Positions 2,724 to 61,686 of a DNA stretch of 64,000 bases are shown piece after piece. The notes beneath the pieces are model-generated. The model ran no database searches, was not told the DNA's origin, and saw only the letters and a program-made list of their open reading frames with translations. The stretch is from Eledone cirrhosa (Eukaryota), in contig OZ024764.1 of assembly GCA_964016885.1 (NCBI GenBank), forward strand, positions 26,970,001-27,034,000. Reading direction: 5' to 3'. Position 1 is the stretch's first letter. Each line of letters starts with the position of its first letter. Position numbers and translations under genes: made by a program.

Positions 2724-2885
2724 AAACTATAACACATATAACTCTATCAGTGAAGCCCTTTAGTATAGGTCAACTGGGAAACTATAACACATATAACCCT
2801 ATCAGTGAAGTCCTTTAGTATAGGTCAACTGGGAAATTATAACACATATAACCCTATCAGTGAAGTCCTTTAGTATAGGTCAACT
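2724..2885 (+). repeat. 55-bp minisatellite, 3 copies
   Basis: AAACTATAACACATATAACCCTATCAGTGAAGTCCTTTAGTATAGGTCAACTGGG, starts at 2724, 2779, 2834. Confidence 0.93.
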
Positions 2886-3328: not shown

Positions 3329-3520
3329 TGGTTGTATGTCGTCCTAGATGTGTGTATTACCTGCTTGTGTGTTGTATGTGGTCCTAGATGTGTGTATTAC
3401 CTGCTTATGTGGTCCTAGATGTATGTATTACCTGCTGGTGTGTTGTATGTGGTCCCAGATGTGTGGATTACCTGTTTTTGTGTTGTATGTGGTCCCAAAT
3501 GTGTGTGCTACCCGCTTCTG
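3329..3520 (+). repeat. ~40-bp GT-rich minisatellite, ~5 diverged copies
   Basis: GTGTTGTATGTGGTCCTAGATGTGTGTATTACCTGCTT units; second copy at ~54547-54740. Confidence 0.85.
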
Positions 3521-4398
3521 TGATTTGTTGTTTCTTCCGAGAAACAATCCTGTATTTTTTTAATCTATTCCATGCGTTAAGTAATTAGCAGCAACAACAA
3601 ACTGATTTTCAGTTGTAAAAAGAATCTTTAAACCTTCACCATTTACATTAACACATACCATACGTTGTCCCAGCCACAAATAAACAGTAAAAAAAACTTA
3701 CTTTGCGGTTAAATTCTTCACAATTAAAAGAAAAATATTTCTAACACGTTTCTAGACAACACCAAGTTTACACCTTCAATATCCGGTAAAAGTAAAAACA
3801 AATTCTGGAGACATTTAACGAAACGAAACTATGTAAAGAAAAACGAAAATTAAACGAAGACAAATAGTAAATTTTAATTTTTATTAAATAAAATACCAGT
3901 AATTCACTGCAGTAGATTTAATCAACTTTACTCTCTCTGCACGAAAGAAGAAAAAAATTCCTGACTTAGTGCTTAATATATAGAGAGGGGGAGAGTTTGG
4001 TGTTACTTCATATAGAGAGGGGTATTGGAAGAGAGTGCCGTGTAGTAGATATAGAGAGGGAGAGAGTGTGTGCTAATTGATATAAAGAGGGGGATTTGCA
4101 CCCCCCCCCCCCCCGCCTAGAAAAATTCTGAAATGCTTCGACCTCCCTGTACATATATATATATATATAGTATACACACACAGACATATATATAGTAAAT
4201 AAATGTGTGTGTGTATCAGTGGTCCCCAAACTTTTCTGTTCCACACCCCTCCTCTAAAATATGTTTATGTTCCCCTTTAATATAAAAAAAATCCGAGTAT
4301 TCTGAAAGTATTATTACTGTAATATAAAGTAGAAACCCTTTATTTAAACAAAGCTACGATGCAGCGATGATCAAAACAAACTTCTCGTAGGTGCTGCC

Positions 4399-5620: not shown

Positions 5621-7647
5621 GTCAGTGATCCCCCTCGCAACCTTTAATTAACCAAACCTGCGATGAGGCGATGATCAAAATAAACACCAAAGTATAAACA
5701 AACAGCCCATAGGTGCTGCCGGATACACGATAACATGTGTAGACGAAGTAAAACTTTTATTACTGTAATATAAAGTAGAAACCCTTTATTTAAACAAAGC
5801 TGCGATGCAGCGATGATCAAAACAAACTTCAAATAACATGTGTATACGAAGTGTATCTGGAAGCTTGGTCGTATTATATGACTTTCAAATTGACCCCTAT
5901 TATATTCAAATTATCCCCTGTGGGGCGTGCACCCCACGTTGAGAATCCCTCATAAATAAATATATGTGAGTGTGTTGCTATGACTGCTATTTCTAGCAGG
6001 TTTACTGCAGTCCTGTAGACGCACAACAAAAACCGGAAGTGGCAGCCATTAAAAAACTTTGGCTTAAAATCAGGCAAAAGTTTTTTAACAATTTGCCAAG
6101 AAAGATAACTCTTGTCTTACTTAATCGCAAAAATCGAGGCAAAAATTTTGTGGGTGTACAGTTTGTTTGGTGTATTTGACTGCTATTTCTAGCATGTATG
6201 GACACTTTAGAAATAGCAGCGAAAAACGGAAAACAGCAGAAAGAAGGACACACACCTATATATATATATATATATACCAGCTATACACTCACCCATACAT
6301 ATATATATATACCAGCTATACACACACCCATATCTACGTATAGGTGTGTGTGCGCGCGTGTATGTATATATAAATATATATATTTAAATGTATATATCTG
6401 TGCATATATATATGTATATATATATACGTGTGTGTCCTTCTTTCTTATGTTTCCCGTGTTTCGCTGCTATTTCTAAAGTGTCCATATATGCTAGAAATAG
6501 CAGTCAAATACACCAAACAAACTGCACACCCGCAAAATTTTTTGCCTCGATTTTTGCGATTAAGTAAGACAAGAGTTATCTTTCTTGGCAAATTGTTAAA
6601 AAACTTTTGCCTGATTTTAAGCCAAAGTTTTTTAATGGCTTCCACTTCCGGTTTTTGTTGTGCGTCTACAGGACTGCAGTAAACCTGCTAGAAATAGCAG
6701 TCATAGCAACACACTCACATATATTTATTTATGAGGGATTCTCAACGTGGGGTGCACGCCCCACAGGGGATAATTTGAATATAATAGGGGTCAATTTGAA
6801 AGTCATATAATACGACCCAACTCCCTGTTACACTTCGTATACACATGTTATCGTGTATCTGGCAGCACCTGCGAGAAGTTTGTTTACATTTTGGGGTTTG
6901 CTTTGATGATCGCTGCATCTCAGCTTTGTTTAAATAAAGGGTTTCTACTTTATATTACAGTAATAACACTTTTACAAGACTCGGATTGTTTTTATATTAA
7001 AGGGGGACATGTTTTTTAAACTCTGAACTCAGCATCTTTCTGTTGTTCTCCGGGATTCTAGCAAAGTATAAAAAAAAATATATATATATAGATATATATA
7101 TATATATCTGGCAGTCAACCTCAGACTCGAAAAAGCCGCCGCTAATCGTGATCGTTGGGGTTATAATTCGACTAAAGTGCTTCCACTGGGCACCATTAGC
7201 TGGTTGTGATCATTGGAGAATTCTTTCTGCGCTGAAAGAGCCTAGGACTAAAAGATATATATATAGATGTCGAAACGGCAGTAGCACAGCCGTTGGGGTC
7301 CTGAATATTTTCACATCTATATATGTGTGTGTATTCTGCGACATTTATAATTACATAAGCAAGCATATTTGAATAACAAAATTTGAGGTTTAAATACTTT
7401 ATTTTTTACCAATAACATAGAGAAAGGCATGAACAACACCACATGTTAATTACTTTAATATTGAAAGTAGGCTTATAAATATTAAAAAAGCAGATGCTTG
7501 TATCGTTCATGGTGGTCTGGTGGGTGATACCAGAGATGGTGGTAGTCATGGTTTCGGTTTCAATCCTGGTCATGGGTTACATATAAGGTCTCATTTTTCT
7601 TTCTTTCAGTTTTCTTCTTATCTCTAGATATAAATATATATACATAA

Positions 7648-7755
7648 GGTAATTTGGTAGAATTGTTAGAACATCAGATAGAATTCTTTGCAGTATTTTT
7701 CCAGTTCTTTACTCTGAGTTCAACTTTACCTTTCTTCCATTCGGTGTCGATAAGT
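7648..7755 (+). mobile_element. Degenerate tRNA-derived SINE (octopus-type)
   Basis: GGTAATTTGGTAGAATTGTTAG...CTGAGTTCAA..CTTT.CCTTTC.TCCATTCGGTGTCGATAA resembles the better-preserved copy at 12320-12482; further copies near 10343, 59263, 61770. Confidence 0.55.
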
Positions 7756-8449
7756 CTTGAATATGTCTAACGTAGCAATAACTGGAGCTACTTAACCAAG
7801 TTTTCCCAACCTAGTCGATGTCACCTACTGGTTGGCGATTTAAACTGTTGGCTGGGACAATGACCAACTAATCAGTCAGATTCCAACTCACTATGTCTGG
7901 CATATATTTTATATTTTATATTTGAATGAAGTTCTGTAAGTAACCTGGTGGCTTAGATGGCAATACTGCTCGAATAGATGGCTTCTATTATGAAGTTATA
8001 AGTTCATTCCCTATCCAGGATTGTAGAATTAATTTTATTTAGTTATTATTTAATCAATTGTTTTAACAAACAAATTATATCTATAAAACGCCAAATATAG
8101 TGAGTTCAAATCTGACTGACATGCATGGTATATATTTATGTTTCATTATACAGCGACACAATACACAGGAACTTATAAAGATATGTATATATTGTCCAGG
8201 AGTTTCGAGTTTAGTGGGAATTGGTACAACTCTCAATTGGAGCTAGTCCCTGCAAGATCAGCATAAATAATGTTATACCTTTTCATGAAATCTTGCACAC
8301 CCGATATTTTATACATGATTATTTAAAGGTGAACAAAAACCAAAGAACATTGTGCAGCATTTCTCAACCTTTCTACCCATGTCGATCTCTTGAAATAGTT
8401 TTTATGTCTCAGGGAAGCCCTGCATAAAATATACTTTTTCTATCTCTAG

Positions 8450-8500
8450 AGCAGTGGTTCCCAAATCGTGTGCTGCGAGATGAAACAAGATGAGCTGCAA
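8450..8500. mobile_element. hAT-like terminus
   Basis: TAGAGCAGTGGTTCCCAAA; a similar end CAGTGGTCCCCAAACTTTT lies at 4216. Confidence 0.5.
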
Positions 8501-8599
8501 AAGACTAAGATTAAGTTTTAAGATGTGAAAAATATAAAACTGAAATTTCATATAAAAGTACAAATATAGCTACAGCCACAAACCTAGGCTCCACACCCC

Positions 8600-8800
8600 G
8601 CAATGCAGAGGATAGTAAGATAGTACCAAGGCCTGACTCACCTCTTCCACTCCATTGAGACCTCTGCCATACTTGGTCCCTGTACTGCTGATTTCCTCCA
8701 TAAAGTCGGGAGGAAAGACAACAGGAGCCTCATGAGGAGGGGCAACTATTGTAGCAGGTGTCTCTGGCCTTGTTCCGAGGTAACGCTTTTACGTTTCTTC
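8600..8800 (+). pseudogene. 3' end of a CRE/NeSL-like retrotransposon, lineage 3
   Basis: YQGLTHLF..SIETSAILGPCTADFLHKVGRK..LL*QVSLALFRGNAF with frameshifts; copies at ~11295, ~60215, ~62706. Confidence 0.65.
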
Positions 8801-9039
8801 CACAGGTTGCGGCTGAGGGACCACTTAGACTGGGGTGAAGTGTCTGTCCCTCCCCCGACTTCTTACTTCTTTTTTTTTCTCCTTTTCATTTTCTTTTCTC
8901 TTCTTGCTTATCTCTGCTATACCACGGCATCAAAAACATATATAATATGTGTATGTATGGTATAGGTGTATTTATATTTAGGATAGTTATCAAAGGTAAA
9001 TAGACTGGTTGGAGCAATAACAGTCTTGTTTATGTATAT

Positions 9040-9086
<47 letters not shown>

Positions 9087-9187
9087 TGTTCTTGTATTTC
9101 CATAGAAAAGGTAAAGAAAAGAAGAATGCTATATATATTGTACAGAGCTATTTAATTACATAATAAACAACAGAATATAATTATTCC

Positions 9188-9439
9188 ATGCAAATAGACT
9201 TAGACTGGAAAACATTCAGACAGAGAAGAATGGATAATGAGCGTCGTAAGAGAAATTGCCAACAATTAATATTAATGGAAATGTAGAAGGATTTCATATT
9301 AGTGATATGAATGTTTCGTGTGATCACTGTGGAGCTTTGAAATTTAGAAATGAAAATTGTAACTGTTGTAATAAAGGAAAGGTTATGTTGCCACCATTGC
9401 AAATATACCCTGAGAGACTGAGAAATCTCTTTGAAAGAG
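9188..9439 (+). pseudogene. Helitron 5' fragment (CxxC..CC zinc-finger region) truncated by a snap-back hairpin
   Basis: MNVSCDHCGALKFRNENCNCCNKGKVMLPPL..PERLRNLF is a typical Helitron N-terminus. Confidence 0.85.
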
Positions 9440-9460
9440 ATTTCTCAGTCTCTCAGGGTA

Positions 9461-10260
9461 TATATTCCCGCCGGTGAAATAAAAATTTTAATAGAAAAAC
9501 GGCGGGAATATATGTTACAACCCAACCTACATATTTTTGGGCTGTAACATATATTCCCGCCGTTGAAATAAATATTTTAATAGAAAAACGGCGGGAATAT
9601 ATGTTACAACCCAATCTATATATATTTGAGTTGTAACATATATTCCCGCCGTTGAAATAAAAATGTTAATAGAAAAACGGCGGGAATATATGTTACAACG
9701 CAATCTATATATATTTGGGTTGTAACATATATTCCCGCCGTTGAAATAAAAATTTTAATAGAAAAACGGCGGGAATATATGTTACAACCCAACCTACATA
9801 TGTTTGGGTTGTAATATATATTCCCGCCGTTTTTCTGTTAAAATTTTTATTTCAACGGCGGGAATATATGTTACAACCCAAATATATGTAGATTGGGTTG
9901 TAACATATATTCCCGCCGTTTTTCTATTAAAATTTTTATTTCGACGGCGGGAATATATGTTACAACCCAAATATATATAGATTGCGTTGTAACATATATT
10001 CCCGCCGTTTTTCTATTAAAATTTTTATTTCAACGGCGGGAATATATGTTACAACCCAAATATATGTACATTGGATTGTAACATATATTCCCGCCGTTTT
10101 TCTATTCAAATTTTTATTTCAACGGCGGGAATATATGTTACAACTCAAATATATATAGATTGGGTTGTAACATATATTCCCGCCGTTTTTCTATTAAAAT
10201 TTTTATTTCACCGGCGGGAATATGTTACAACCCAAATATATATATATTGAGTTGTAACAT
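9461..10260. repeat. 89-bp palindromic (dumbbell) tandem array, 4 units with loops in one orientation then 5 inverted
   Basis: Unit is 28-bp arm + 22-nt spacer + inverted 28-bp arm + 11-nt spacer; starts at 9461, 9550, 9639, 9728; loop inverted from ~9817. Confidence 0.95.
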
Positions 10261-11849
10261 GGGTTACATATAAGGTCTCATTTTTTTTCTTTTCTTTCTT
10301 TCAGTTTTCTTCTTATCTCTAGATATAAATATATATACATGAGGTAACTTGGTAGAATTGTTAGAACATCAGATAGAATTCTTTGCAGTATTTTTCCAGT
10401 TCTTTACTCTGAGTTCAACTTTACCTTTCTTCCATTCAGTGTCGATAAGTCTTGAATATGTCTAACGTAGCAATAACTGGAGCTACTTAACCAAGTTTTC
10501 CCAACCTAGTCGATGTCACCTACTGGTTGGCGATTTAAACTGTTGGCTGCGACAATGACCAACTAATCAGTCAGATTCGAACTCACTATGTCTGGCATAT
10601 ATTTTATATTTTATATTTGAATGAAGTTCTGTAAGTAACCTGGTGGCTTAGATGGCAATACTGCTCGAATAGATGGCTTCTATTATGCAGTTATAAGTTC
10701 ATTCCCTATCCAGGATTGTAGAATTAATTTTATTTAGTTATTATTTAATCAATTGTTTTAACAAACAAATTATATCTATAAAACGCCAAATATAGTGAGT
10801 TCAAATCTGACTGACATGCATGGTATATATTTATGTTTCATTATACAGCGACACAATACACAGGAACTTATAAAGATATGTATATATTGTCCAGGAGTTT
10901 CGAGTTTAGTGGGAATTGGTACAACTCTCAATTGGAGCTAGTCCCTGCAAGATCAGCATAAATAATGTTATACCTTTTCATGAAATCTTGCACACCCGAT
11001 ATTTTATACATGATTATTTAAAGGTGAACAAAAACCAAAGAACATTGTGCAGCATTTCTCAACCTTTCTACCCATGTCGATCTCTTGAAATAGTTTTTAT
11101 GTCTCAGGGAAGCCCTGCATAAAATATACTTTTTCTATCTCTAGAGCAGTGGTTCCCGAATCGTGTGCTGCGAGATGAAACAAGATGAGCTGCAAAAGAC
11201 TAAGATTAAGTTTTATGATGTGAAAAATGTAAAGCTGAAATTTCATATAAAAGTTCAAATATAGCTACAGCCACAAACCTAGGCTCCACACCCCGCAATG
11301 CAGAGGATAGTAAGATAGTACCAAGGCCTGACTCACCTCTTCCACTCCATTGAGACCTCTGCCATACTTGGTCCCTGTACTGCTGATTTCCTCCATAAAG
11401 TCGGGAGGAAAGATGACAGGAGCCTCATGAGGAGGGGCGACTATTGTAGCAGGTGTCTCTGGCCTTGCTCCGAGGTAACGCTTTTACGTTTCTTCCACAG
11501 GTTGCGGCTGAGGGACCACTTAGACTGGGGTGAAGTGTCTGTCCCTCCCCCGACTTCTTACTTCTTTTTTTTTCTCCTTTTCATTTTCTTTTCTCTTCTT
11601 GCTTATCTCTGCTATACCACGGCATCAAAAACATATATGATATATGTATGTATGGTATAGGTGTATTTATATTTAGGATAGTTATCAAAGGTAAATAGAC
11701 TGGTTGGAGCAATAACAGTCTTGTTTATGTATATACATATATATATATATTTATATGTTTGTTCTTGTATTTCCATAGAAAAGGTAAAGAAAAGAAGAAT
11801 GCTCTATGTATTGTACAGAGCTATTTAATTACATAATAAACAACAGAAT

Positions 11850-12590
11850 GGAAAACATTCAGACAGAGAAGAATGGATAATGAGCGTTGTAAGAGAAATT
11901 GGCCAACAATTAATATTAATGGAAATGTAGAAGAATTTCATATTAGTGATATGAATGTTTCGTGTGATCACTGTGAAGCTTTGAAATTTAGAAATGAAAA
12001 TTGTAACTGTTGTAATAAAGGAAAGGTTGTGTTGCCACCATTGCAAATATACCCTGAGAGACTGAGAAATCTCTTTGAAAGAGGCCAGGAAGCAGTTGAT
12101 TTCACAGAAACATCTGCAATTAAAACTACATTTATTTCACTTCATTTGGTGTTACCACCCGGCAGAGGCCCGTATAGCTTTCATATTCAGGGTCAAACAT
12201 ATCACTACACCCCCATCTCTGTAACCTGCAGAAAATACACCACAATATGGCCAGTTATATATTATTGATGGGAACGAAGGTATGTAGCACAGATTGGAAG
12301 TACGTCCAAATAATTGTTTCTAGCACAAGGCCAGCAATTACTGGTACTTTATTCTATCGACCTAATAAGGATGAAAACAAAGTCAACCTTGGAGGGATTT
12401 GAACCCAGAACGTAAAGGGACATAACCCTATGCTGTAAAGCATGGTGTCTGGCGCTCTACCGATACTGCCAATCCACTGCCCTAGTACCAACAAATAATG
12501 ACTGCTCACCACAAAAAATGGCTATGATAAGAGAAGTGTTGCATGAATGTAATTCATATGTCGAAGTGTACAATACAATGCATGGCATCA
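11850..12590 (+). pseudogene. Helitron RepHel 5' part, interrupted at 12590
   Basis: CDHCEALKF..CCNKGKV..GRGPYSFHIQGQTYH..QLYIIDG..IREVLHECN.YVEVY; ends at CATGGCATCA, whereas uninterrupted copies continue AACAGC. Confidence 0.9.
12320..12482 (-). mobile_element. tRNA-derived SINE (octopus OK/OR-like) inserted in the Helitron
   Basis: Minus strand has A box TGGCAGTATCGG, B box GGGTTCAAATCC and tail GGTCGATAGAATAAAGTACCAG; degenerate TSD AGTAC..CAAATAAT on both sides; the same insertion is in the other Helitron copies that reach this point. Confidence 0.8.
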
Positions 12591-31727: not shown

Positions 31728-34700
31728 ATTTATTAGCCACAGGGGCAGAGATGTCCATAACATTACATGACAGAATTATTAGCCACAGGGGCAGAGATTT
31801 CCATAACATTACATGTCAGAATTATTAGCCACAGGGGCAGAGATGTCCATAACATTACATGTCAGAATTATTAGCCACAGGGGCAGAGATGTCCATAACA
31901 TTACATGACAGAATTATTAGCCACAGGGGCAGAGATGACCATAACATTACATGACAATTATTAGCCACAGGGGCAGATATGTCAATAACATTACATGACA
32001 GAGTTTCATCTTGCGCTCTCTCTCTCTCGTTTCATCTCGCTCTCCCTCTCTCTCGTTTCATCTCTGTCTTCCTCTCTCTCGTTTCATCTCGATCTCTCTC
32101 TCTCTCGTTTCATCTCTGTCTTCCTCTCTCTCGTTCCATCTCTCTCTTCCTCTCTCTCGTTCCATCTCTCTCTTCCTCTCTTTCGTTTCATCTCTATCTC
32201 CCTTCTTTCATCTGTCTCTCTCTCTGTCGTTTCATCTCGCGCTCTCTCTCACTCGTTTCATCTTGCGCTCTCTCTCTCTCGTTTCGTCTTGCTCTCTCTC
32301 TCTCTCGTTTCATCTCTGTCTTCCTCTCTCTCGTTCCATCTCTCTATCCCTCTCTCTCGTTCCATCTCTCTCATCCTCTCTCTCGTTTCATCTCTATCTC
32401 CCTCCTTTCATCTGTCTCTCTCTCTGTCGTTTCATCTCGCGCTCTCTCTCTCTCGTTTCATCTTGCGCTCTCTCTCTCTCGTTTCATCTCGTTCTCTCTC
32501 TCGTTTCATCTCTGTCTTCCTCTCTCTCGTTCCATCTCTCTCTTCCTCTCTCTCTTGTTCCATCTCTCTCTTCCTCTCTCTCGTTTCATCTCTATCTCCC
32601 TTCTTTCATCTGTCTCGCTCTCTGTCGTTTCATCTCGCGCTCTCTCTCTCGTTTCATGTCGCGCTCTCTCTCTCTCGTTTCATCTCGCTCTCTCTCTCTC
32701 GTTTCATCTCTGTCTTCCTCTCTCTCGTGCCATCTCTCTCTTCCTCTCTCTCTTCCTCTCTCTCGTTTCATCTCTATCTCCCTTGTTTCATCTCTCTCTC
32801 GCTCTCTCGTTTCATCTCTCTCTCCCTCTCGTTTCATCTCGCTCTCTCTCTCCTGTTTCATCTCGCTCTCTCTCTCTCGTTTCATCTCTGTCTTCCTCTC
32901 TCTCGTTCCATCTCTGTCTTCCTCTCTCTCGTTCCATCTCTCGCTTCCTCTCTCTCGTTTCATCTCGCTCTCCCTCGTTTCATCTCTCTCTCGCTCTCTC
33001 GTTTCATCTCTCTCTCCCTCTCATTTCATCTCGCTCTCTCTCTCCTGTTTCATCTGGCTCTCTCTCTCTCCTGTTTCATCTCGCTCTCTACTCTCGTTTC
33101 CTCTCTCTCTCTCGTTTCATCTCTCTCTCCCTCCCGTTTCATCTCGCTCTCTCTCTCTCATTTCATCTCGCTCTCTCTCTCTCGTTTCATCTCGCTCTCC
33201 CTCTCTCGTTTCATCCCGCTCTCACTCTCTCATTTCTTCTCGCTCTCTCTCTCTTGTTTCAACACTCTAATCCCTCACTTGTTTACTATCTCTCAGAATT
33301 ATTAGCCACAGGGGCAGAGATGACCATAACATTACATGTCAGAATTATTAGCCACAACGGCAGAGATGTCCATAACATTACATGACAGAATTATTAGCCA
33401 CAGGGGCAGAGATGACCATAACATTACATGACAATTATTAGCCACAGGGGCAGATATGTCAATAACATTACATGACAGAGTTTCATCTCGCGCTCTCTCT
33501 CTCTCGTTTCATCTTGCGCTCTCTCTCTCTCTCGTTTCATCTTGCTCTCTCTCTCGTTTCATCTCTGTCTTCCTCTCTCTCGTTCCATCTCTCTCTTCCT
33601 CTCTCTCGTTCCATCTCTCTCATCCTCTCTCTCGTTTCATCTCTATCTCCCTCCTTTCATCTGTCTCTCTCTCTGTTGTTTCATCTCGCGCTCTCTCTCT
33701 CTCTCGTTTCATCTCGCGCTCTCTCTGTCTCGTTTCATCTCGCTCTCTCTCTCTCTCGTTTCATCTCTGTCTTCCTCTCTCTCGTTCCATCTCTCTCTTC
33801 CTCTCTCTCGTTCCATCTCTCTCTTCTTCTCTCTCGTTTCATCTCTATCTCCCTCGTTTCATCTCTCTCTCGCTCTCTCGTTTCATCTCTCTCTCCCGCT
33901 CGTTTCTTTTCGCTCTCTCTCTCCTGTTTCATCTCGCTCTCTACTCTCGTTTCCTCTCTCTCATTTCCTCTCTCTCTCGTTTCCTCTCTGTCTCGTTTCA
34001 TCTCGCTCTCTCTCTTTCTCGTTTGATCTCGCTCTCACTCTCTCGTTTCATCTCGCTTCTCTCACTCTCTTGTTTCATCTCGCTCTCTCTCTCTCTTCCT
34101 CTCTCTCTCTTGTTTCAACACTCTAATCCCTCACTTGTTTTATCTCTCTCTAATCCCTCACTTGGTTCATCTCTCTCAGAATTATTAGCCACAGGGGCAG
34201 AGATGTCCATAACATTACATGTCAGAATTATTAGCCACAGGGCAGAGATGTCCATAACATTACATGTCAGAATTATTAGCCACTGGGGCAGAGATGTCCA
34301 TAACATTACATGTCAGAATTATTAGCCACAGGGGTAGAGATGTCCATAACATTACATGTCAGAATTATTAGCCACAGGGGCAGTGATGTCCATAACATTA
34401 CATGACAATTATTAGCCCCAAGGGCAGATATGTCCATAACATTACATGACAGAGTTCCATCTCGCGCTCTCTCTCTTCCTCTCTCTCGTTTCATCTCGCT
34501 CTCTCTCTCTCTCGTTTCATCTCGCTCTCTCGTTTCATCTCGCTCTCTCGTTTCATCTCGCTCTCTCTCGTTTCATCTCTGTCTTCCTCTCTCTCGTTCC
34601 ATCTCTCTCTTCCTCTCTCTCGTTCCATCTCTCTCTTCCTCTCTCTCGTTTCCTTTCTATCTCCCTCCTTTCATCTGTCTCTCTCTCTGTTGTTTCATCT

Positions 34701-45774: not shown

Positions 45775-48030
45775 CCCTTCAAGATGTGTATGACGAGAAA
45801 GAAGCCGTTTTAGAATCGTATGACATAGATAATAACTGGAATTTCTTATGTGACAACTTACTGCAGGCTGCTGAAGACACTTGTGGCTGGAGCAGAGCTC
45901 CGACCAGACAGAGAGTGACCTGGTGGTGGGACAACACGGTAGATAAGGCCATTAGAGACAAAAGACTAGCATGGAACACTTGGATAAATGGTGGGAGTAG
46001 AGACCGATGCACAGCCGCTAAGAAAGAAGCTAGACGTCAGGTGTACTTAGCACGCAGGGAGGCTGAGAATAGGAGGGTTGCCAATGTTCTGTGACGGGAA
46101 GATCAAAGACGTGCAGTGTTCCGCATTGCAAGCCAGTGTGTCAGTGTAAATCGGGATGTTGTTGGAGATAAATGTGTCCGGAATGATGCTGGTGTACTCA
46201 GTGTCAATAATGATCAGAAAAAGGAGGCCTGGAAATGCCATTATGAGAGGCTGATGAATGTAGAGAATGAATGGGAGAGAGAGAAACTACCCACATTTGA
46301 CCGAACAGAGGGACCAGCTATTGAGATTGTTGACTATAGGGTCAAAGAGGCAATTAAAAAAAGGAAAAATGGTAAGGCAGCTGGACCATCAGGGATAGTT
46401 GCTGAGATGCTGAAGGCATGAGGAGAAGTAGGTACTAAACTGGTTGCAAGCATAATCAATCAAGCTATATATGGCGGAGTCATACCCAAAGACTGGTGCA
46501 GCAGTATTCTCATAAATTGCTACAAAGGTAAAGGGGATGCTCTGGAGAGGATCAATTATAGAGGCAGAAAACTGATGGATCAGGTTATGAAAGTGGCAGA
46601 AAGGATATTAGAGCAACTAATTAGAGAAAGAGTCAAACTAGATGAGATGCAGTTTGGTTTTGTGCCTGGGAAAAGTACAACCGATGCCCTCTTCTTAGAG
46701 AAGAATAAGCCATTATACTTAGCTTTTGTTGACCTAGAGAAAGCCTTTGATAGTGTACCCCAGTCTGTCATCTGGTGATCCCTAAGGAAACTAGGTGTTG
46801 AGGAATGGCTTGTGAGGACAGTACAAGCTTTGTACAGAGGTACTGTCTGTAAAGTGAGGGTAGGAATGGAGTTTAGTGAGGAATTCCAGATACAAGGAGG
46901 AGTCCATCAGAGTTCGGTCCTCAGCCCGCTCTTCTTCATTATAGTCCTCCAAGCCATAACAGAGGAGTTTAAGACTAGCTGCCCATGGGAACTTCTCTAT
47001 ACTGACAATCTGGTTTTTATAGCAGAATCAGTAGAGGAGCTAGAGAATAAATTCTGGCTATGGAAACAGCAGTTGGAATTAAGAGGACTGAGAGTGAACC
47101 CAGCTAAAACAAAAGTGTTGATAAGTAGAAAAAAGGACAAAACTCTGATGGCCATGTTCGATATGCAGAAAAGGAACTGGCATACATTCTATAAAATGTA
47201 CACAATGCAGATCTTGGGTACACACGAGATGTAGTGGGATAGCAGGCAAACTAACAGGTAGGGAAAACTACGTATGCAGTAGATGTACAGGGAAATTTGA
47301 CAGTAGAAGTTGCATTGATAGACACATTTTTCAAATGCAAGTTGGTTCTATAAAAGTGGTTGATAGCTTCAGTACCTAGGTGATCAGATTAGTATGGGAG
47401 GGGGGGGGGTTTCCGAGGCCATAGTATCTAGAATAAGGACGGGCTGGAAGAAGTTTAGGGAGCTGCCTCCTCTGGTGACAAAGAGGGTTTCTCCCTGCAT
47501 ACAAAAGGTTGGTTGTTTGATGCCTGTGTGAGATGCACAATGTTGCATGGTAGTGAGACATGGGCAGCAACTGCAGAGGATATGCGAAGGCTGAAGAGAA
47601 ATGAAGCAAGCATGCTCCATTGGATGTGCAATGTCAATGTGCGTGAAAGACCAAGCATGGACGAGTTGAGAGTGAAACTCTATAAGAAGGATAAACTGCA
47701 GTGTGCGGGAGAAAAGACTGCGTTGGTATGGCCATGCGATGCGTATGCAGGATTACCGCAGGGTGAAGAAGTGCCAAGTAATCCCAGTGGGAGGAATATG
47801 CAGTAGAGGAAGACCAAGGAAGATATGGGCAGAGGTAGTGAGAGCTGACCTCAGATCGTTGAAGCTCAGAGGAGATGATGAAGGAGAGATGCTGCGCTGA
47901 AGAGGATCTGTCCCACCCTTATAAGCAGGGAAAAGTGGATGTATAATGATGATGATATATATATATGTCCCACCCTTGCAAACAGGGAAAAGCAGACGTA
48001 AAATGAAAATGATGATATATATATAGATAG
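45775..48030 (+). mobile_element. 5'-truncated RTE-clade LINE; reverse transcriptase pseudogene plus 3' tail
   Basis: TWWWD, GKAAGPSGIVAEMLKA, YKGKGDALE..NYRG.KLM, QFGFVPGKST.DA, LAFVDLEKAFD, GVHQ.SVLSPL.F, LLYTDNL (decayed YADD), YLGD, HGSETW, RLRWYGH, RGRPRK; stops and frameshifts; duplicated GGAAAAG..(ATG)n tail. Confidence 0.93.
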
Positions 48031-53686: not shown

Positions 53687-54163
53687 AAACTATAACACAT
53701 ATAACTCTATCAGTGAAGCCCTTTAGTATAGGTCAACTAGGAAACTATAACACATATAACCCTATCAGTGAAGTCCTTTAGTATAGGTCAACTGGGAAAC
53801 GATAACACATATAACCCTATCAGTGAAGTCCTTTAGTATAGGTCAACTGGGAAACTATAACACATATAACCCTATCAGTGAAGTCCTTTAGTATAGGTCA
53901 ACTGGGAAACTATAACACATATAACCCTATCAGTGAAGCCCTCTGGGAAACTATAACACATATAACTCTATCAGTGAAGCCCTTTAGTATAGGTCAACTG
54001 GGAAACTATAACACATATAACCCTATCAGTGAAGTCCTTTAGTATAGGTCAACTGGGAAACTATAACACATATAACCCTATCAGTGAAGTCCTTTAGTAT
54101 AGGTCAACTGGGAAATTATAACACATATAACCCTATCAGTGAAGTCCTTTAGTATAGGTCAAC
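53687..54163 (+). repeat. 55-bp minisatellite, 9 copies (one truncated)
   Basis: Same monomer as 2724-2885. Confidence 0.93.
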
Positions 54164-55514
54164 TAACAGAAGTATTAAGGTGGGCTCGATTGTGGCCCGC
54201 GGGCCGCCTGTTGCACGCCCCTCCTTTAGACAGAATATCTATCACAGTTAAGTAATACTGTGATCTGTCGGCCAACTACATTTTCCAGCCTGAGGCGTTT
54301 GGGGGAGTCGGGATACTGACTGCGAGATTCCTATCTTCACTGGCGGCTAGCCTGACGAAGGTGACTGGTGAAGCTCGTGAGGGCACTTGGTTGTTCCAGC
54401 TCCTCAGCCTCGCCATCGCCCGAGGTAACGCTGCAGACGTGCTGGCTTGCCTAAAAAATCATTAGAGAGGTTTCCCAGTGCTCCTCGCGATACTGTTATC
54501 TTTTGCTCTAGTAGCAGCTCGTTTGTCCACCCCTTTCGCCTGCCTTTGGTTGTATGTCGTCCTAGATGTGTGTATTACCTGCTTGTGTGTTGTATGTGGT
54601 CCTAGATGTGTGTATTACCTGCTTATGTGGTCCTAGATGTATGTATTACCTGCTGGTGTGTTGTATGTGGTCCCAGATGTGTGCATTACCTGTTTTTGTG
54701 TTGTATGTGGTCCCAAATGTGTGTGCTACCCGCTTCTGTGATTTGTTTTGTTCCTTCTTTCTCTCTTCCGAGAAACAATCCTGTATTTTTTTAATCTATT
54801 CCATGCGTTAAGTAATTAGCAGCAACAACAAACTGATTTTCAGTTGTAAAAAGAATCTTTAAACCTTCACCATTTACATTAACACATACCATACGTTGTC
54901 CCAGCCACAAATAAACAGTAAAAAAAACTTACTTTGCGGTTAAATTCTTCACAATTAAAAGAAAAATATTTCTAACACGTTTCTAGACAACACCAAGTTT
55001 ACACCTTCAATATCCGGTAAAAGTAAAAACAAATTCTGGAGACATTTAACGAAACGAAACTATGTAAAGAAAAACGAAAATTAAACGAAGACAAGTAGTA
55101 AATTTTAATTTTTATTAAATAAAATACCAGTAATTCACTGCAGTAGATTTAATCAACTTTACTCTCTCTGCACGAAAGAAGAAAAAAATTCCTGACTTAG
55201 TGCTTAATATATAGAGAGGGGGAGAGTTTGGTGTTACTTCATATAGAGAGGGGTATTGGAAGAGAGTGCCGTGTAGTAGATATAGAGAGGGAGAGAGTGT
55301 GTGCTAATTGATATAAAGAGGGGGATTTGCACACCCCCCCGCCGCCTAGAAAAGTTCTGAAATGCTTCGACCTCCCTGTACATATATATATATATATAGT
55401 ATACACACACAGACATATATATGTATATATTATATATATAGTAAATAAATGTGTGTGTGTATCAGTGGTCGCCAAACTTTTCTGTTCCACACCCCTCCTC
55501 TAAAATATGTTTAT

Positions 55515-56832: not shown

Positions 56833-57449
56833 GTCAGTGATCCCCCTCGCAACCTTTAATTAAACAAACCTGCGATGAGGCGATGATCAAAATAAACACC
56901 AAAGTATAAACAAACAGCCCATAGGTGCTGCCGGATACACGATAACATGTGTAGACGAAGTAAAACTTTTATTACTGTAATATAAAGTAGAAACCCTATA
57001 TTTAAACAAAGCTGCGATGCAGCGATGATCAAAACAAACTTCAAATAACATGTGTATACGAAGTGTATCTGGAAGCTTGGTCGTATTATATGACTTTCAA
57101 ATTGACCCCTATTATATTCAAATTATCCCCTGTGGGGCGTGCACCCCACGTTGAGAATCCCTCATAAATAAAAATATGTGAGTGTGTTGCTATGACTGCT
57201 ATTTCTAGCAGGTTTACTGCAGTCCTGTAGACGCACAACAAAAACCGGAAGTGGCAGCCATTAAAAAACTTTGGCTTAAAATCAGCCAAAAGATTTTCAA
57301 TAATAGTAAAATTTTATTTTTGACAAGGACGATAACTTTTGTCTTACTTAATCGCATAAATCGAGGCAAAAATTTTGCGGGTGTGCAGTTTACACGCTAA
57401 AATAAACCTGCTAGAAATAGCAGTTATAGCAACTCACATATATTTATAT

Positions 57450-57483
<34 letters not shown>

Positions 57484-57892
57484 CCAAACACACACCCTTA
57501 TATATGTACGTGTGTGTGTGTTGACCGCTATATATATATATAGCAGCCAAACACATACACAGACACACATATATATATATACATGTGTGTGTATATGTGT
57601 GTGTCCTCCTCTCGTCTATGGCTGTTATTTTTACATTGTCCTTTTTGTTATTTTTCTCGGGATTTGCCCGGATTCGAACATGCGACCACCTATTTACAAT
57701 ATAGAATCTTTACAGCTTTACTGACTTTTAAGTAATCCAAGTTGTAACCCCGGATTTAGTAGTGTTTAATTTATTTTGAAGTATTTTATTATTGGCCTTA
57801 GTTAGACGATCGTCCAAGACCATGCTGGGGCATATATATATATATGTATATATATGTGTGTGTGTGTGTGTATGCTGGGGCATATATATATA

Positions 57893-57946
<54 letters not shown>

Positions 57947-58633
57947 CTAGGGCATATATATATATATGTGTGTGTGTATATATATATATATATGTGTGTG
58001 TCCTTTCTGTTATTCGCTGCTATTTCTAAAGTGTCAATATATATATCATATATATATATATATGATATATAAATATATGTAAGTGAGTTGCTATGACTGC
58101 TATTTCTAGCAGGTTTATTTTTAGCGTGTAAACTGCACACCCTCAAAATTTTTGCCTCGATTTTTGCGATTAAGTAAGACAAAAGTTATCGTCCTTGTCA
58201 AAAATAAAATTTTACTATTATTGAAAATCTTTTGGCTGATTTTAAGCCAAAGTTTTTTAATGGCTGCCACTTCCGGTTTTTGTTGTGCGTCTACAGGACT
58301 GCAGTAAACCTGCTAGAAATAGCAGTCATAGCAACACACTCACATATATTTATTTATGAGGGATTCTCAACGTGGGGTGCACGCCCCACAGCGGATAATT
58401 TGAATATAATAGGGGTCAATTTGAAAGTCATATAATACGACCCAACTCCCTGTTACACTTCGTATACACATGTTAGCGTGTATCTGGCAGCACCTGCGAG
58501 AAGTTTGTTTACATTTTGGGGTTTGCTTTGATGATCGCTGCATCGCAGCTTTGTTTAAATAAAGGGTTTCTACTTTATATTACAGTAATAACACTTTTAC
58601 AAGACTCGGATTGTTTTTATATTAAAGGGGACA
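55515..58633. mobile_element. Second copy of the foldback element, with different inner arms and a longer spacer
   Basis: ~56970-57460 is the reverse complement of ~58060-58592; spacer contains GGATTCGAACATGCGACCACC (B box on the minus strand) and microsatellites. Confidence 0.8.
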
Positions 58634-60790: not shown

Positions 60791-61042
60791 ATGCAAATAG
60801 ACTTAGACTGGAAAACATTCAGACAGAGAAGAATGGATAATGAGCGTCGTAAGAGAAATTGGCCAACAATTAATATTAATGGAAATGTAGAAGGATTTCA
60901 TATTAGTGATATGAATGTTTCGTGTGATCACTGTGGAGCTTTGAAATTTAGAAATGAAAATTGTAACTGTTGTAATAAAGGAAAGGTTGTGTTGCCACCA
61001 TTGCAAATATACCCTGAGAGACTGAGAAATCTCTTTGAAAGA
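60791..61042 (+). pseudogene. Helitron 5' fragment truncated by the same snap-back hairpin
   Basis: ORF 60791-61081; hairpin 61007-61067. Confidence 0.85.
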
Positions 61043-61063
61043 GATTTCTCAGTCTCTCAGGGT

Positions 61064-61686
61064 ATATATTCCCGCCGTTGAAATAAAAATTTTAATAGAA
61101 AAACGGCGGGAATATATGTTACAACCCAATCTATATATATTTAGGTTGTAACATATATTCCCGCCGTTGAAATAAAAATTTTAATAGAAAAACGGCGGGA
61201 ATATATGTTACAGCCCAATCTATATATATTTGGGTTTTAACATATATTCCCGCCGTTGAAATAAACATTTTAATAGAAAAACGGCGGGAATATATGTTAC
61301 AACCCAATCTACATATATTTGGGTTGTAACATATATTCCCGCCGTTGAAATAAAAATTTTAATAGAAAAACGGCGGGAATATATGTTACAACCCAATCTA
61401 CATATATTTGGGTTGTAACATATATTCCCGCCGTTGAAATTTAAATTTTAACATAAAAACGGCGGGAATATATATTACAACCCAAACATATATAGGTTGG
61501 GTTGTAACATATATTCCCGCCGTTTTTCTATTAAAATTTTTATTTCAACGGCGGGAATATATGTTACAACTCAAATATATATAGATTGGGTTGTAACATA
61601 TATTCCCGCCGTTTTTCTATTAAAATTTTTATTTCACCGGCAGGAATATGTTACAACCCAAATATATATATATTGAGTTGTAACAT
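61064..61686. repeat. 89-bp palindromic array, second copy (5 forward and 2 inverted units)
   Basis: Same monomer as 9461-10260. Confidence 0.93.

What the first reader, a model, noticed from the sequence alone, without database searches (positions are those of the whole stretch)
9461..10260. 89-bp monomer is a perfect dumbbell, resembling a rolling-circle concatemer of a tiny hairpin-closed circle with flip/flop loops
Seen: arm TTGGGTTGTAACATATATTCCCGCCGTT (28) + spacer GAAATAAAAATTTTAATAGAAA (22) + inverted arm (28) + spacer TCTATATATAT (11) = 89. Every arm can pair with both neighbours. The 22-nt spacer switches to its reverse complement mid-array, and rare variants are mirrored across the centre (CCGGTGAAAT at 9471 vs ATTTCACCGG at 10205; CAACGCAAT vs ATTGCGTTG). 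Inference: repeated copying around a dumbbell template followed by fold-back would give this product, as in rolling-hairpin replication, and it abuts a rolling-circle transposon. It could instead be the subterminal array of a foldback-type transposon.
Basis: partly seen in the sequence, partly recalled or inferred. Interest (0 to 1): 0.7.

Follow-up and report, generated by a model that had tools for sequence, protein, structure and literature searches.

The report
Flipped array of a mini-mariner transposon
The 89-base repeat is a whole miniature mariner transposon plus a TA linker, stacked into one array that flips direction in the middle, likely built by DNA-copying slips and fold-backs and then likely carried passively to 88 places inside a larger repeat; it is an unusually clear fossil of a transposon turning into satellite DNA, and nothing here shows a self-copying DNA circle.

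Summary
In detail: nine 89-bp units, one flip, mirrored variants. The monomer is not a new element. It is a complete 78-bp Tc1/mariner MITE, dispersed as TA-flanked solo copies, whose decayed D34D mariner parent is in the genome. One hairpin is the MITE's TIR pair. The other is TIR-(TA)n-TIR; two unrelated solo copies show the same join as a fold-back copy of their own arm. The array arose once: the 81 arrays parsed share both junctions, 88 right junctions exist, all in segmental clusters on three contigs. It sits between two copies of a 1.87-kb stretch, joined by a 24-nt snap-back and 3-4 nt microhomologies; outgroup repeats are empty. The adjacent Helitron lacks its HUH and Walker motifs. 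A rolling-circle step at birth is not excluded (about 0.2; Bari1 precedent). An active free dumbbell is unsupported.

The parts
9460..10260 (.). Array of nine mariner-MITE units (4 forward, 5 reverse), partial arms at both ends
9715..9792 (+). One complete 78-bp MITE unit: 28-bp TIR, 22-bp interior made of the parent's 5' and 3' subterminal bases, 28-bp TIR
   Evidence: 32/35 identical to the parent 5' end and 44/50 columns to its 3' end; solo copies
9704..9714 (+). 11-nt linker, a mutated TA tract between two TIRs; loop of the second hairpin
   Evidence: same join formed by fold-back at solo loci L306 and L307
9765..9920 (.). Central block-loop-block around loop 9832-9853; occurs in this orientation in 20 and reversed in 31 of 81 arrays
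9403..9463 (.). 61-bp perfect hairpin: native inverted repeat 9427-9439 extended by 24 nt of snap-back copy (9440-9463); ATAT microhomology to the array at 9460-9463
   Evidence: the uninterrupted sequence continues at 12084
10210..10260 (+). Terminal arm (CCGG variant, 2-bp deletion), pure (AT)n linker, 12-nt partial arm, CAT microhomology to the start of the duplicated stretch
   Evidence: terminal linker identical in 81 of 81 arrays
7571..9439 (+). Upstream copy of the 1.87-kb direct duplication (old repeats plus the 5' part of a dead Helitron ORF)
10258..12083 (+). Downstream copy of the duplication; 24 mismatches in 1817 aligned bases; Helitron relic continues beyond it
9190..9439 (+). 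N-terminal piece of a decayed Helitron RepHel ORF, cut by the fold-back
   Evidence: tblastn with P0001 (PF14214 + PF05970), E 4e-19
61007..61686 (.). Second copy of hairpin plus array (7 units, 5 forward, 2 reverse) with the centre in the other orientation

Best explanation
The unit is a whole 78-bp mariner MITE plus a TA-derived linker, and the array was likely made once by error-prone DNA synthesis that folded back and slipped on these hairpins, likely pasted in together with a 1.87-kb duplication, and then likely multiplied passively with the surrounding macro-repeat. Shown: MITE identity and parent; one shared pair of junctions; a 24-nt snap-back and 3-4 nt microhomologies at the junctions; empty versions of the site; 4-15 units per array; both orientations of the centre. 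Inferred: (1) a founder MITE folded back at its flanking TA tract and copied one TIR, giving TIR-(TA)n-TIR and explaining why both arms carry the same private base; (2) the resulting 89-bp direct repeat grew by slippage or unequal exchange; (3) a fold-back or strand switch at an arm gave the reversed half; (4) template switching (MMBIR/FoSTeS or end-joining type) put it between two copies of the 1.87-kb stretch; (5) unequal exchange spread it on three contigs while inversion and conversion between inverted arms kept flipping the centre and mirroring variants. The order of steps 2-4 is not resolved. No function is implied.
For: Solo units on many contigs, TA at the left end in 48, right end in 43, both in 39 of 53 distinct solos with two ungapped TIRs. 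Three long elements start with the same TIR and encode a broken mariner transposase (HTH_48 E 1.9e-12, Transposase_1 E 3.2e-5; D34D spacing read from the translation). L306 (C2) and L307 (C7) each have an arm, a TA tract and an inverted copy of that arm with its private variants. The array's TATAT base is in one arm of 10 and in both arms of 0 of 58 solos, yet in both arms of the array unit (those 10 were picked for having it). 83 exact left junctions and 88 right junctions, all on C18, C20, C25; 79 of 81 parsed arrays have one switch. Forward units 2-12, reverse 2-5; 41 of 81 within one unit of symmetry. Centre in one orientation in 31, the other in 20, unassigned 30. Outgroup repeats (C23, C25:14.7 Mb, C1 and others, 20 stretches) have no array and no MITE. 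The terminal unit keeps a pure TA linker in 81 of 81 arrays, unlike internal linkers. A different satellite in the same window also flips at a fold-back (31729).
Against: No donor was found. Nearly all loop matches (731 of 748) fall in the 86 arrays held, and the two arrays not fully fetched can account for the rest, so a pre-existing chromosomal array is not shown. Monomer divergence from consensus (2.5% overall; arms 1.9%, loops 1.5%, linkers 7.9%) is of the same order as the 1.3-1.4% between the two flanking copies, which fits birth of the whole array at about the time of insertion, as a one-shot synthesis would predict. No other end-to-end dimer of two consensus MITEs was found with a 6-36 nt linker (0 hits). 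The test for variants moving between opposite arms was weak (15 of 26 against 9 expected). Some empty sites may be secondary deletions (L201 and L251 nest among filled copies).
Confidence: 0.68

Rival explanations
1. One-time rolling circle: a MITE with its TA flanks was excised as an 89-nt circle, copied into a concatemer, folded back once and inserted with a long flanking duplication, as proposed for the Bari1 arrays of Drosophila. Everything later was passive.
For: No donor array in the assembly. Partial terminal units and a long direct duplication, as described for the small Bari1 array (PMC5932611 passages). Monomer and flank divergence are of the same order.
Against: The terminal unit differs from the internal ones (pure TA linker in 81 of 81, 2-bp deletion, CCGG in 77 of 81). 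Both TA target ends are altered in the unit and the interior is diverged, so a transposase-made circle is unlikely. Chromosomal snap-back is seen directly at solo loci, so no circle is needed for the dumbbell. 31 of 46 recurrent variants occur on two or more contigs, which suggests many were present before the spread.
Confidence: 0.2
2. Helitron-driven: the neighbouring Helitron's Rep captured or rolled the dumbbell, and the 1.87-kb duplication is a repeated Helitron 5' end.
For: The array interrupts a Helitron ORF. Tandem truncated Helitrons with several 5' ends are described (review PMC12628747 section 4).
Against: Hits cover residues 141-512, 633-867 and 1367-1498 of P0001; the Rep motifs at 555 and 618 and the Walker motifs at 1098 and 1179 are in the missing parts. 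The empty outgroup copy is already full of stops and frameshifts. Homology runs straight through the duplication start in outgroups, and the start is not an A|TC end. The true Helitron ends were not mapped, and action in trans was not tested.
Confidence: 0.06
3. Repeated mariner insertions into one TA site or tract built the array.
For: The family targets TA tracts; double insertion is a documented route to tandem transposons (PMC5932611).
Against: All units share founder-specific changes absent from the family consensus, and the linkers do not end in TA, so the units descend from one copy.
Confidence: 0.02
4. A persistent free dumbbell replicon (rolling-hairpin type) that keeps inserting concatemers.
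For: Dumbbell geometry and two orientations of the centre.
Against: All 81 arrays parsed have the same two junctions, and all 88 lie in one macro-repeat family. No coding partner. Ordinary recombination between inverted arms gives the two orientations.
Confidence: 0.03

Closest known systems
Made1, the MITE of human Hsmar1 (PMC3814204 passage; its 80-bp size is recalled)
   Same: Tiny near-palindromic deletion derivative of a mariner, joined at a short microhomology (here about 5 nt), TA target.
   Different: Different TIR sequence and parent. Here one copy became a whole-element tandem array with a flip.
Bari1 tandem arrays of Drosophila melanogaster (PMC5932611 passages)
   Same: Tandem whole Tc1/mariner elements, partial terminal element, long flanking direct duplication (about 500 nt there, 1.87 kb here); rolling circle versus unequal exchange is left open there too.
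   Different: Bari1 units are full-length elements joined head to tail with TIR loss at the junctions. Here the unit is an 89-bp MITE with intact TIRs, so every join is a hairpin, and the array inverts midway.
Angel MITE fold-back model (Izsvak) and Xstir/Xmix, miDNA4 MITE-derived repeats (as summarised in review PMC12628747 section 4; originals not read)
   Same: Fold-back of a nascent strand at a MITE gives an inverted duplicate; MITEs seed tandem repeats.
   Different: Xstir and miDNA4 repeats come from the interior of the MITE. Here the whole element is the monomer, and fold-back at the flanking TA tract is visible at solo loci.
Template-switch inverted duplications (ODIRA, PMC10766183 abstract; fold-back inversions, PMC7467729 search listing)
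   Same: Short native inverted repeat extended into a perfect hairpin at the junction; microhomology joins.
   Different: Those are kb-Mb inversions of unique DNA; here the inverted part is 24 nt plus a templated MITE array inside a direct duplication.

Membership tests
Tc1/mariner-derived MITE | Short, non-coding, with terminal inverted repeats | tested here: met
   78 bp, 28-bp TIRs
Tc1/mariner-derived MITE | Dispersed copies with fixed ends in unrelated flanks | tested here: met
   69 exact matches to the 26-nt family TIR on many contigs; 53 distinct solos with both TIRs among 70 loci read
Tc1/mariner-derived MITE | TA at both ends | tested here: met
   TA left 48, right 43, both 39 of 53. 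Many lie in (TA)n, which inflates this. Not met for the array units themselves, whose TA ends are altered
Tc1/mariner-derived MITE | TA duplication proven by an empty orthologous site | not tested
   No empty sites of solo copies were sought
Tc1/mariner-derived MITE | Autonomous-type parent with the same TIRs and a DD34D transposase | tested here: met
   L286, L279, L288: same 5' TIR (L286 and L279 also the 3' subterminal/TIR); Pfam HTH_48 and Transposase_1; 34 residues between the second and third Asp in L279. All three are broken
Foldback-type transposon subterminal array | Array lies inside a long TIR at the end of a mobile element with its own target duplication at independent sites | tested here: not met
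   All arrays lie in one macro-repeat between direct copies of the same 1.87 kb; no second inverted array bounds an element
Helitron internal repeat or rolling-circle product | Host element with an intact HUH Rep and helicase | tested here: not met
   Motif-bearing regions absent from all window copies
Helitron internal repeat or rolling-circle product | Repeated unit begins at the element's 5' TC end | tested here: inconclusive
   The duplication start is not A|TC and homology continues across it in outgroups, but the true 5' end was not mapped
Rolling-hairpin or rolling-circle replicon | Free circular or hairpin-closed form and multimers | not testable with these tools
   Only contigs and RAD reads were available
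Rolling-hairpin or rolling-circle replicon | Independent integrations or a cognate initiator | tested here: not met
   One junction pair in 81 of 81 parsed arrays; no intact initiator nearby
Known RNA family (miRNA precursor etc.) | Reaches the Rfam gathering score | tested here: not met
   144 matches at E<=1, none at its gathering score

The most novel reading that the evidence does not exclude
Mariner MITEs sitting in TA microsatellites are self-priming dumbbell factories. A snap-back in the TA tract copies one TIR and closes a double hairpin; here that unit left the chromosome as a tiny circle or hairpin, was copied round and back in one burst, and was pasted in with a 1.87-kb duplication: a satellite caught at birth by a transposase-independent route, with the intermediate step still visible at solo loci.
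Probability: 0.2. Interest if true: 0.55.

Novelty: new variant of a known kind. Interest (0 to 1): 0.28.

Why it matters
How transposons turn into tandem arrays (double insertion, unequal exchange, fold-back or rolling circle) is usually argued from one end product. Here the parent mariner, dozens of solo MITEs, two solo fold-back intermediates, empty sites and 88 descendants with both centre orientations sit in one genome, so the routes can be compared directly. It also gives a natural marker set for inversion and conversion inside an 800-bp palindrome. There is no sign of a function or of a new replicon, so the wider importance is modest.

Tried and rejected
Looking for the parent among mariner Pfam hits: 0 of 50 loci carried this TIR (closest 9 mismatches in 30); a pattern from the MITE's 5' subterminal bases found it. 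A wide-gap TIR-to-TIR pattern gave no result. Consensus MITE dimers with 6-36 nt linkers: 0; a looser pattern gave 211 sites, of which the listing (first 50 sites, C1 to part of C20) shows 2 outside the arrays; C21 onward was not listed. Donor MITE inside the macro-repeat: none in the cluster DNA or 20 outgroup stretches. Helitron ends: a CTAG at 2567-2570 ends the match in one C1 copy, but five other copies run past it and one stretch ended too early to tell; not accepted. Pfam did not recognise the Helitron fragments; a full-length homolog did. Mirror test between opposite arms weak. The tree of 49 flank copies is poorly resolved and does not order the events. Rfam: only generic hairpin scores. 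No RNA holder listed, so expression and small RNAs are untested. Earlier scan notes: none. Six paper searches listed no whole-MITE array with a central flip; Repbase and Dfam were not available, so the MITE may already be catalogued.

Full report
Observation. The array at 9460-10260 is as described: period 89, nine units, made of a 28-nt arm, a 22-nt loop, the inverted arm and an 11-nt linker. Loops and linkers switch to their reverse complements around loop 9832-9853. A 22-mer of the arm has 28 matches in the window and none in 100 shuffles; 12 of them belong to a second array at 61064-61686. Raw reads from two other samples cover the left junction and the right junction, and contigs under a second species label hold a terminal unit and the right junction. 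The structure is real.

What the monomer is. The window lies in a 3.0-Gb animal genome; from memory its SINEs look octopus-like, which I did not test. An exact 21-mer of the arm has 1098 matches. The first ten listed are single arm-loop-arm units on seven contigs in unrelated, mostly TA-rich flanks. The family form of the arm has 69 exact 26-nt matches spread over the genome. Of 53 distinct solos with two ungapped arms, 48 have TA on the left, 43 on the right and 39 on both sides. Three loci start with the same arm and run on into a broken mariner transposase: HTH_48 E 1.9e-12, Transposase_1 E 3.2e-5, and 34 residues between the second and third catalytic Asp in L279. L286 is 1484 bp with both TIRs. 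The array unit matches the parent's 5' end at 32 of 35 bases and its 3' end at 44 of 50 columns, overlapping by about 5 nt. So the unit is a whole mariner MITE of the Made1 kind, and the first hairpin is simply its TIR pair. Solo arms not used for selection are 7.5% from consensus (25 of 27 loci scored), so the family is old.

Where the second hairpin comes from. A search for arm-end, short gap, arm-start found two sites outside the arrays among the first 50 listed. At L306 a solo MITE's right arm is followed by (TA)n and an exact inverted copy of that arm, including its private changes; L307 shows the same over 18 nt. This is what snap-back in a self-complementary TA tract would leave. It also explains a peculiarity of the array unit: both arms carry the same non-consensus base, seen in one arm of 10 and both arms of 0 of 58 solos. 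The terminal linker is a pure AT tract in 81 of 81 arrays, likely the ancestral state.

One origin, passive spread. The left junction has 83 exact matches and the right junction 88 within two mismatches, all in clusters on C18, C20 and C25. I parsed 81 arrays picked by the exact left junction; five more were checked later and end alike; two were not fully fetched. All 81 begin and end at the same junctions. The array lies between two copies of a 1.87-kb stretch (7571-9439 and 10258-12083; 24 mismatches in 1817). On the left, a native inverted repeat at 9427-9439 has been extended by 24 nt into a perfect 61-bp hairpin and joins the array at ATAT; on the right the array joins the start of the stretch at CAT. 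Related macro-repeats on C23, C25:14.7 Mb, C1 and elsewhere have the stretch once or in part, with no array and no MITE; empty sites also occur in the clusters, though some may be secondary deletions. This is the anatomy of a tandem duplication with a templated insertion, typical of template switching in replication or repair.

Later change. Arrays hold 4-15 units (median 9); 79 of 81 have one switch and 2 have three. Forward units range 2-12, reverse 2-5, and 41 of 81 are within one unit of symmetry. The central block-loop-block, marked by private variants, is in one orientation in 31 arrays and reversed in 20; 30 could not be assigned. The mirrored variants are lineage-restricted. CCGG is at the right end in 77 of 81 but at both ends in 32, and at the left end in 0 of 15 C18 arrays. 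The CAACGCAAT variant is in both halves in 21 arrays, all on C25, and in the reverse half only in 9. They are better read as arm-to-arm copying after the fact than as a record of one synthesis.

The Helitron. One full-length homolog with Helitron_like_N and PIF1 domains (P0001) maps to fragments in the window. Residues 513-632 and 868-1366 are missing in every window copy, and they hold the Rep motifs at 555 and 618 and the Walker motifs at 1098 and 1179. The empty C23 copy is already full of stops and frameshifts. The Helitron is most likely a dead bystander, though its ends were not mapped.

What stays open. No donor array or donor solo was found: 731 of 748 loop matches lie in the 86 arrays held. 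Monomers are 2.5% from their consensus (linkers 7.9%, arms 1.9%) against 1.3-1.4% between the flanking copies. That neither demands an older array nor excludes one. A single burst of rolling-circle synthesis at birth therefore remains possible. The small Bari1 array of Drosophila has the same marks, a partial terminal element and a long flanking duplication, and its authors left both routes open (PMC5932611, passages). Against it, the terminal unit differs from the internal ones and chromosomal snap-back is seen directly.

Comparison with the literature. Seen: review PMC12628747 (passages and the first of two parts of its section 4) on fold-back and MITE-derived repeats; PMC9659126 (passages); PMC5932611 (passages); PMC3814204 (passages); PMC10766183 (abstract and outline); PMC13282606 (passages; it drops repeat annotations under 100 bp, so elements of this size can be missed there); PMC7467729 (search listing only). 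Six searches listed no array of whole MITEs with a central flip. Repeat databases were not available and no supplements were read.

Verdict. Observation confirmed; interpretation partly supported. This is a new variant of a known kind, a transposon-derived tandem array, with an unusually complete set of intermediates and no evidence of function or of a free replicating form. Interest 0.28.

Noticed in passing
window 13525-41406, centre near 31729: A 28-kb composite satellite (GA-rich blocks alternating with a 46-bp repeat) changes strand at a fold-back with a loop of about 7 nt, giving arms of about 18 and 10 kb.
   Followed up: partly
window 5833-6851: A 1-kb inverted repeat (92% identity) in the same macro-repeat; present in outgroup copies too, and partly repeated at 57045-58600.
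   Followed up: no
G000 C18, C20, C23, C24, C25, C27: The decayed Helitron is the core of a macro-repeat family with over 100 near-identical copies (periods about 8.2 kb on C23, 14.6 kb and longer on C25); on C25 the cluster changes strand between 28.0 and 28.6 Mb.
   Followed up: partly
G000 C18:34.99-35.00 Mb and C25 pairs: The 1.87-kb stretch plus array has itself been amplified as a 2.7-kb tandem unit, up to four in a row.
   Followed up: partly
L306 (C2:53365965), L307 (C7:7187193), L043 (C2:193426590), L005, L305: Five solo MITE loci show local rearrangements: two TA-tract fold-backs, one inverted partial copy with flank, one partial arm duplication and one 115-bp direct duplication.
   Followed up: partly
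L286, L279, L288: Decayed parent mariner with short tandem copies of an 11-nt motif in its 5' untranslated part; it was not among the 50 Pfam-ranked mariner loci examined.
   Followed up: partly
window 46779-47234: Reverse transcriptase fragment (RVT_1, E 2e-8) of a LINE.
   Followed up: no
window 2724-2885, 3331-3522, 53687-54164: 55-bp and 40-bp minisatellites in the macro-repeat that expand to dozens of copies in C18:25.0 Mb and C25:14.7 Mb versions.
   Followed up: no
run X2: A run under a different species label holds the array's terminal unit and right junction, with the G-to-A variant at 10216 found in many C25 arrays; no contig over the left junction was listed, which proves nothing.
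   Followed up: partly
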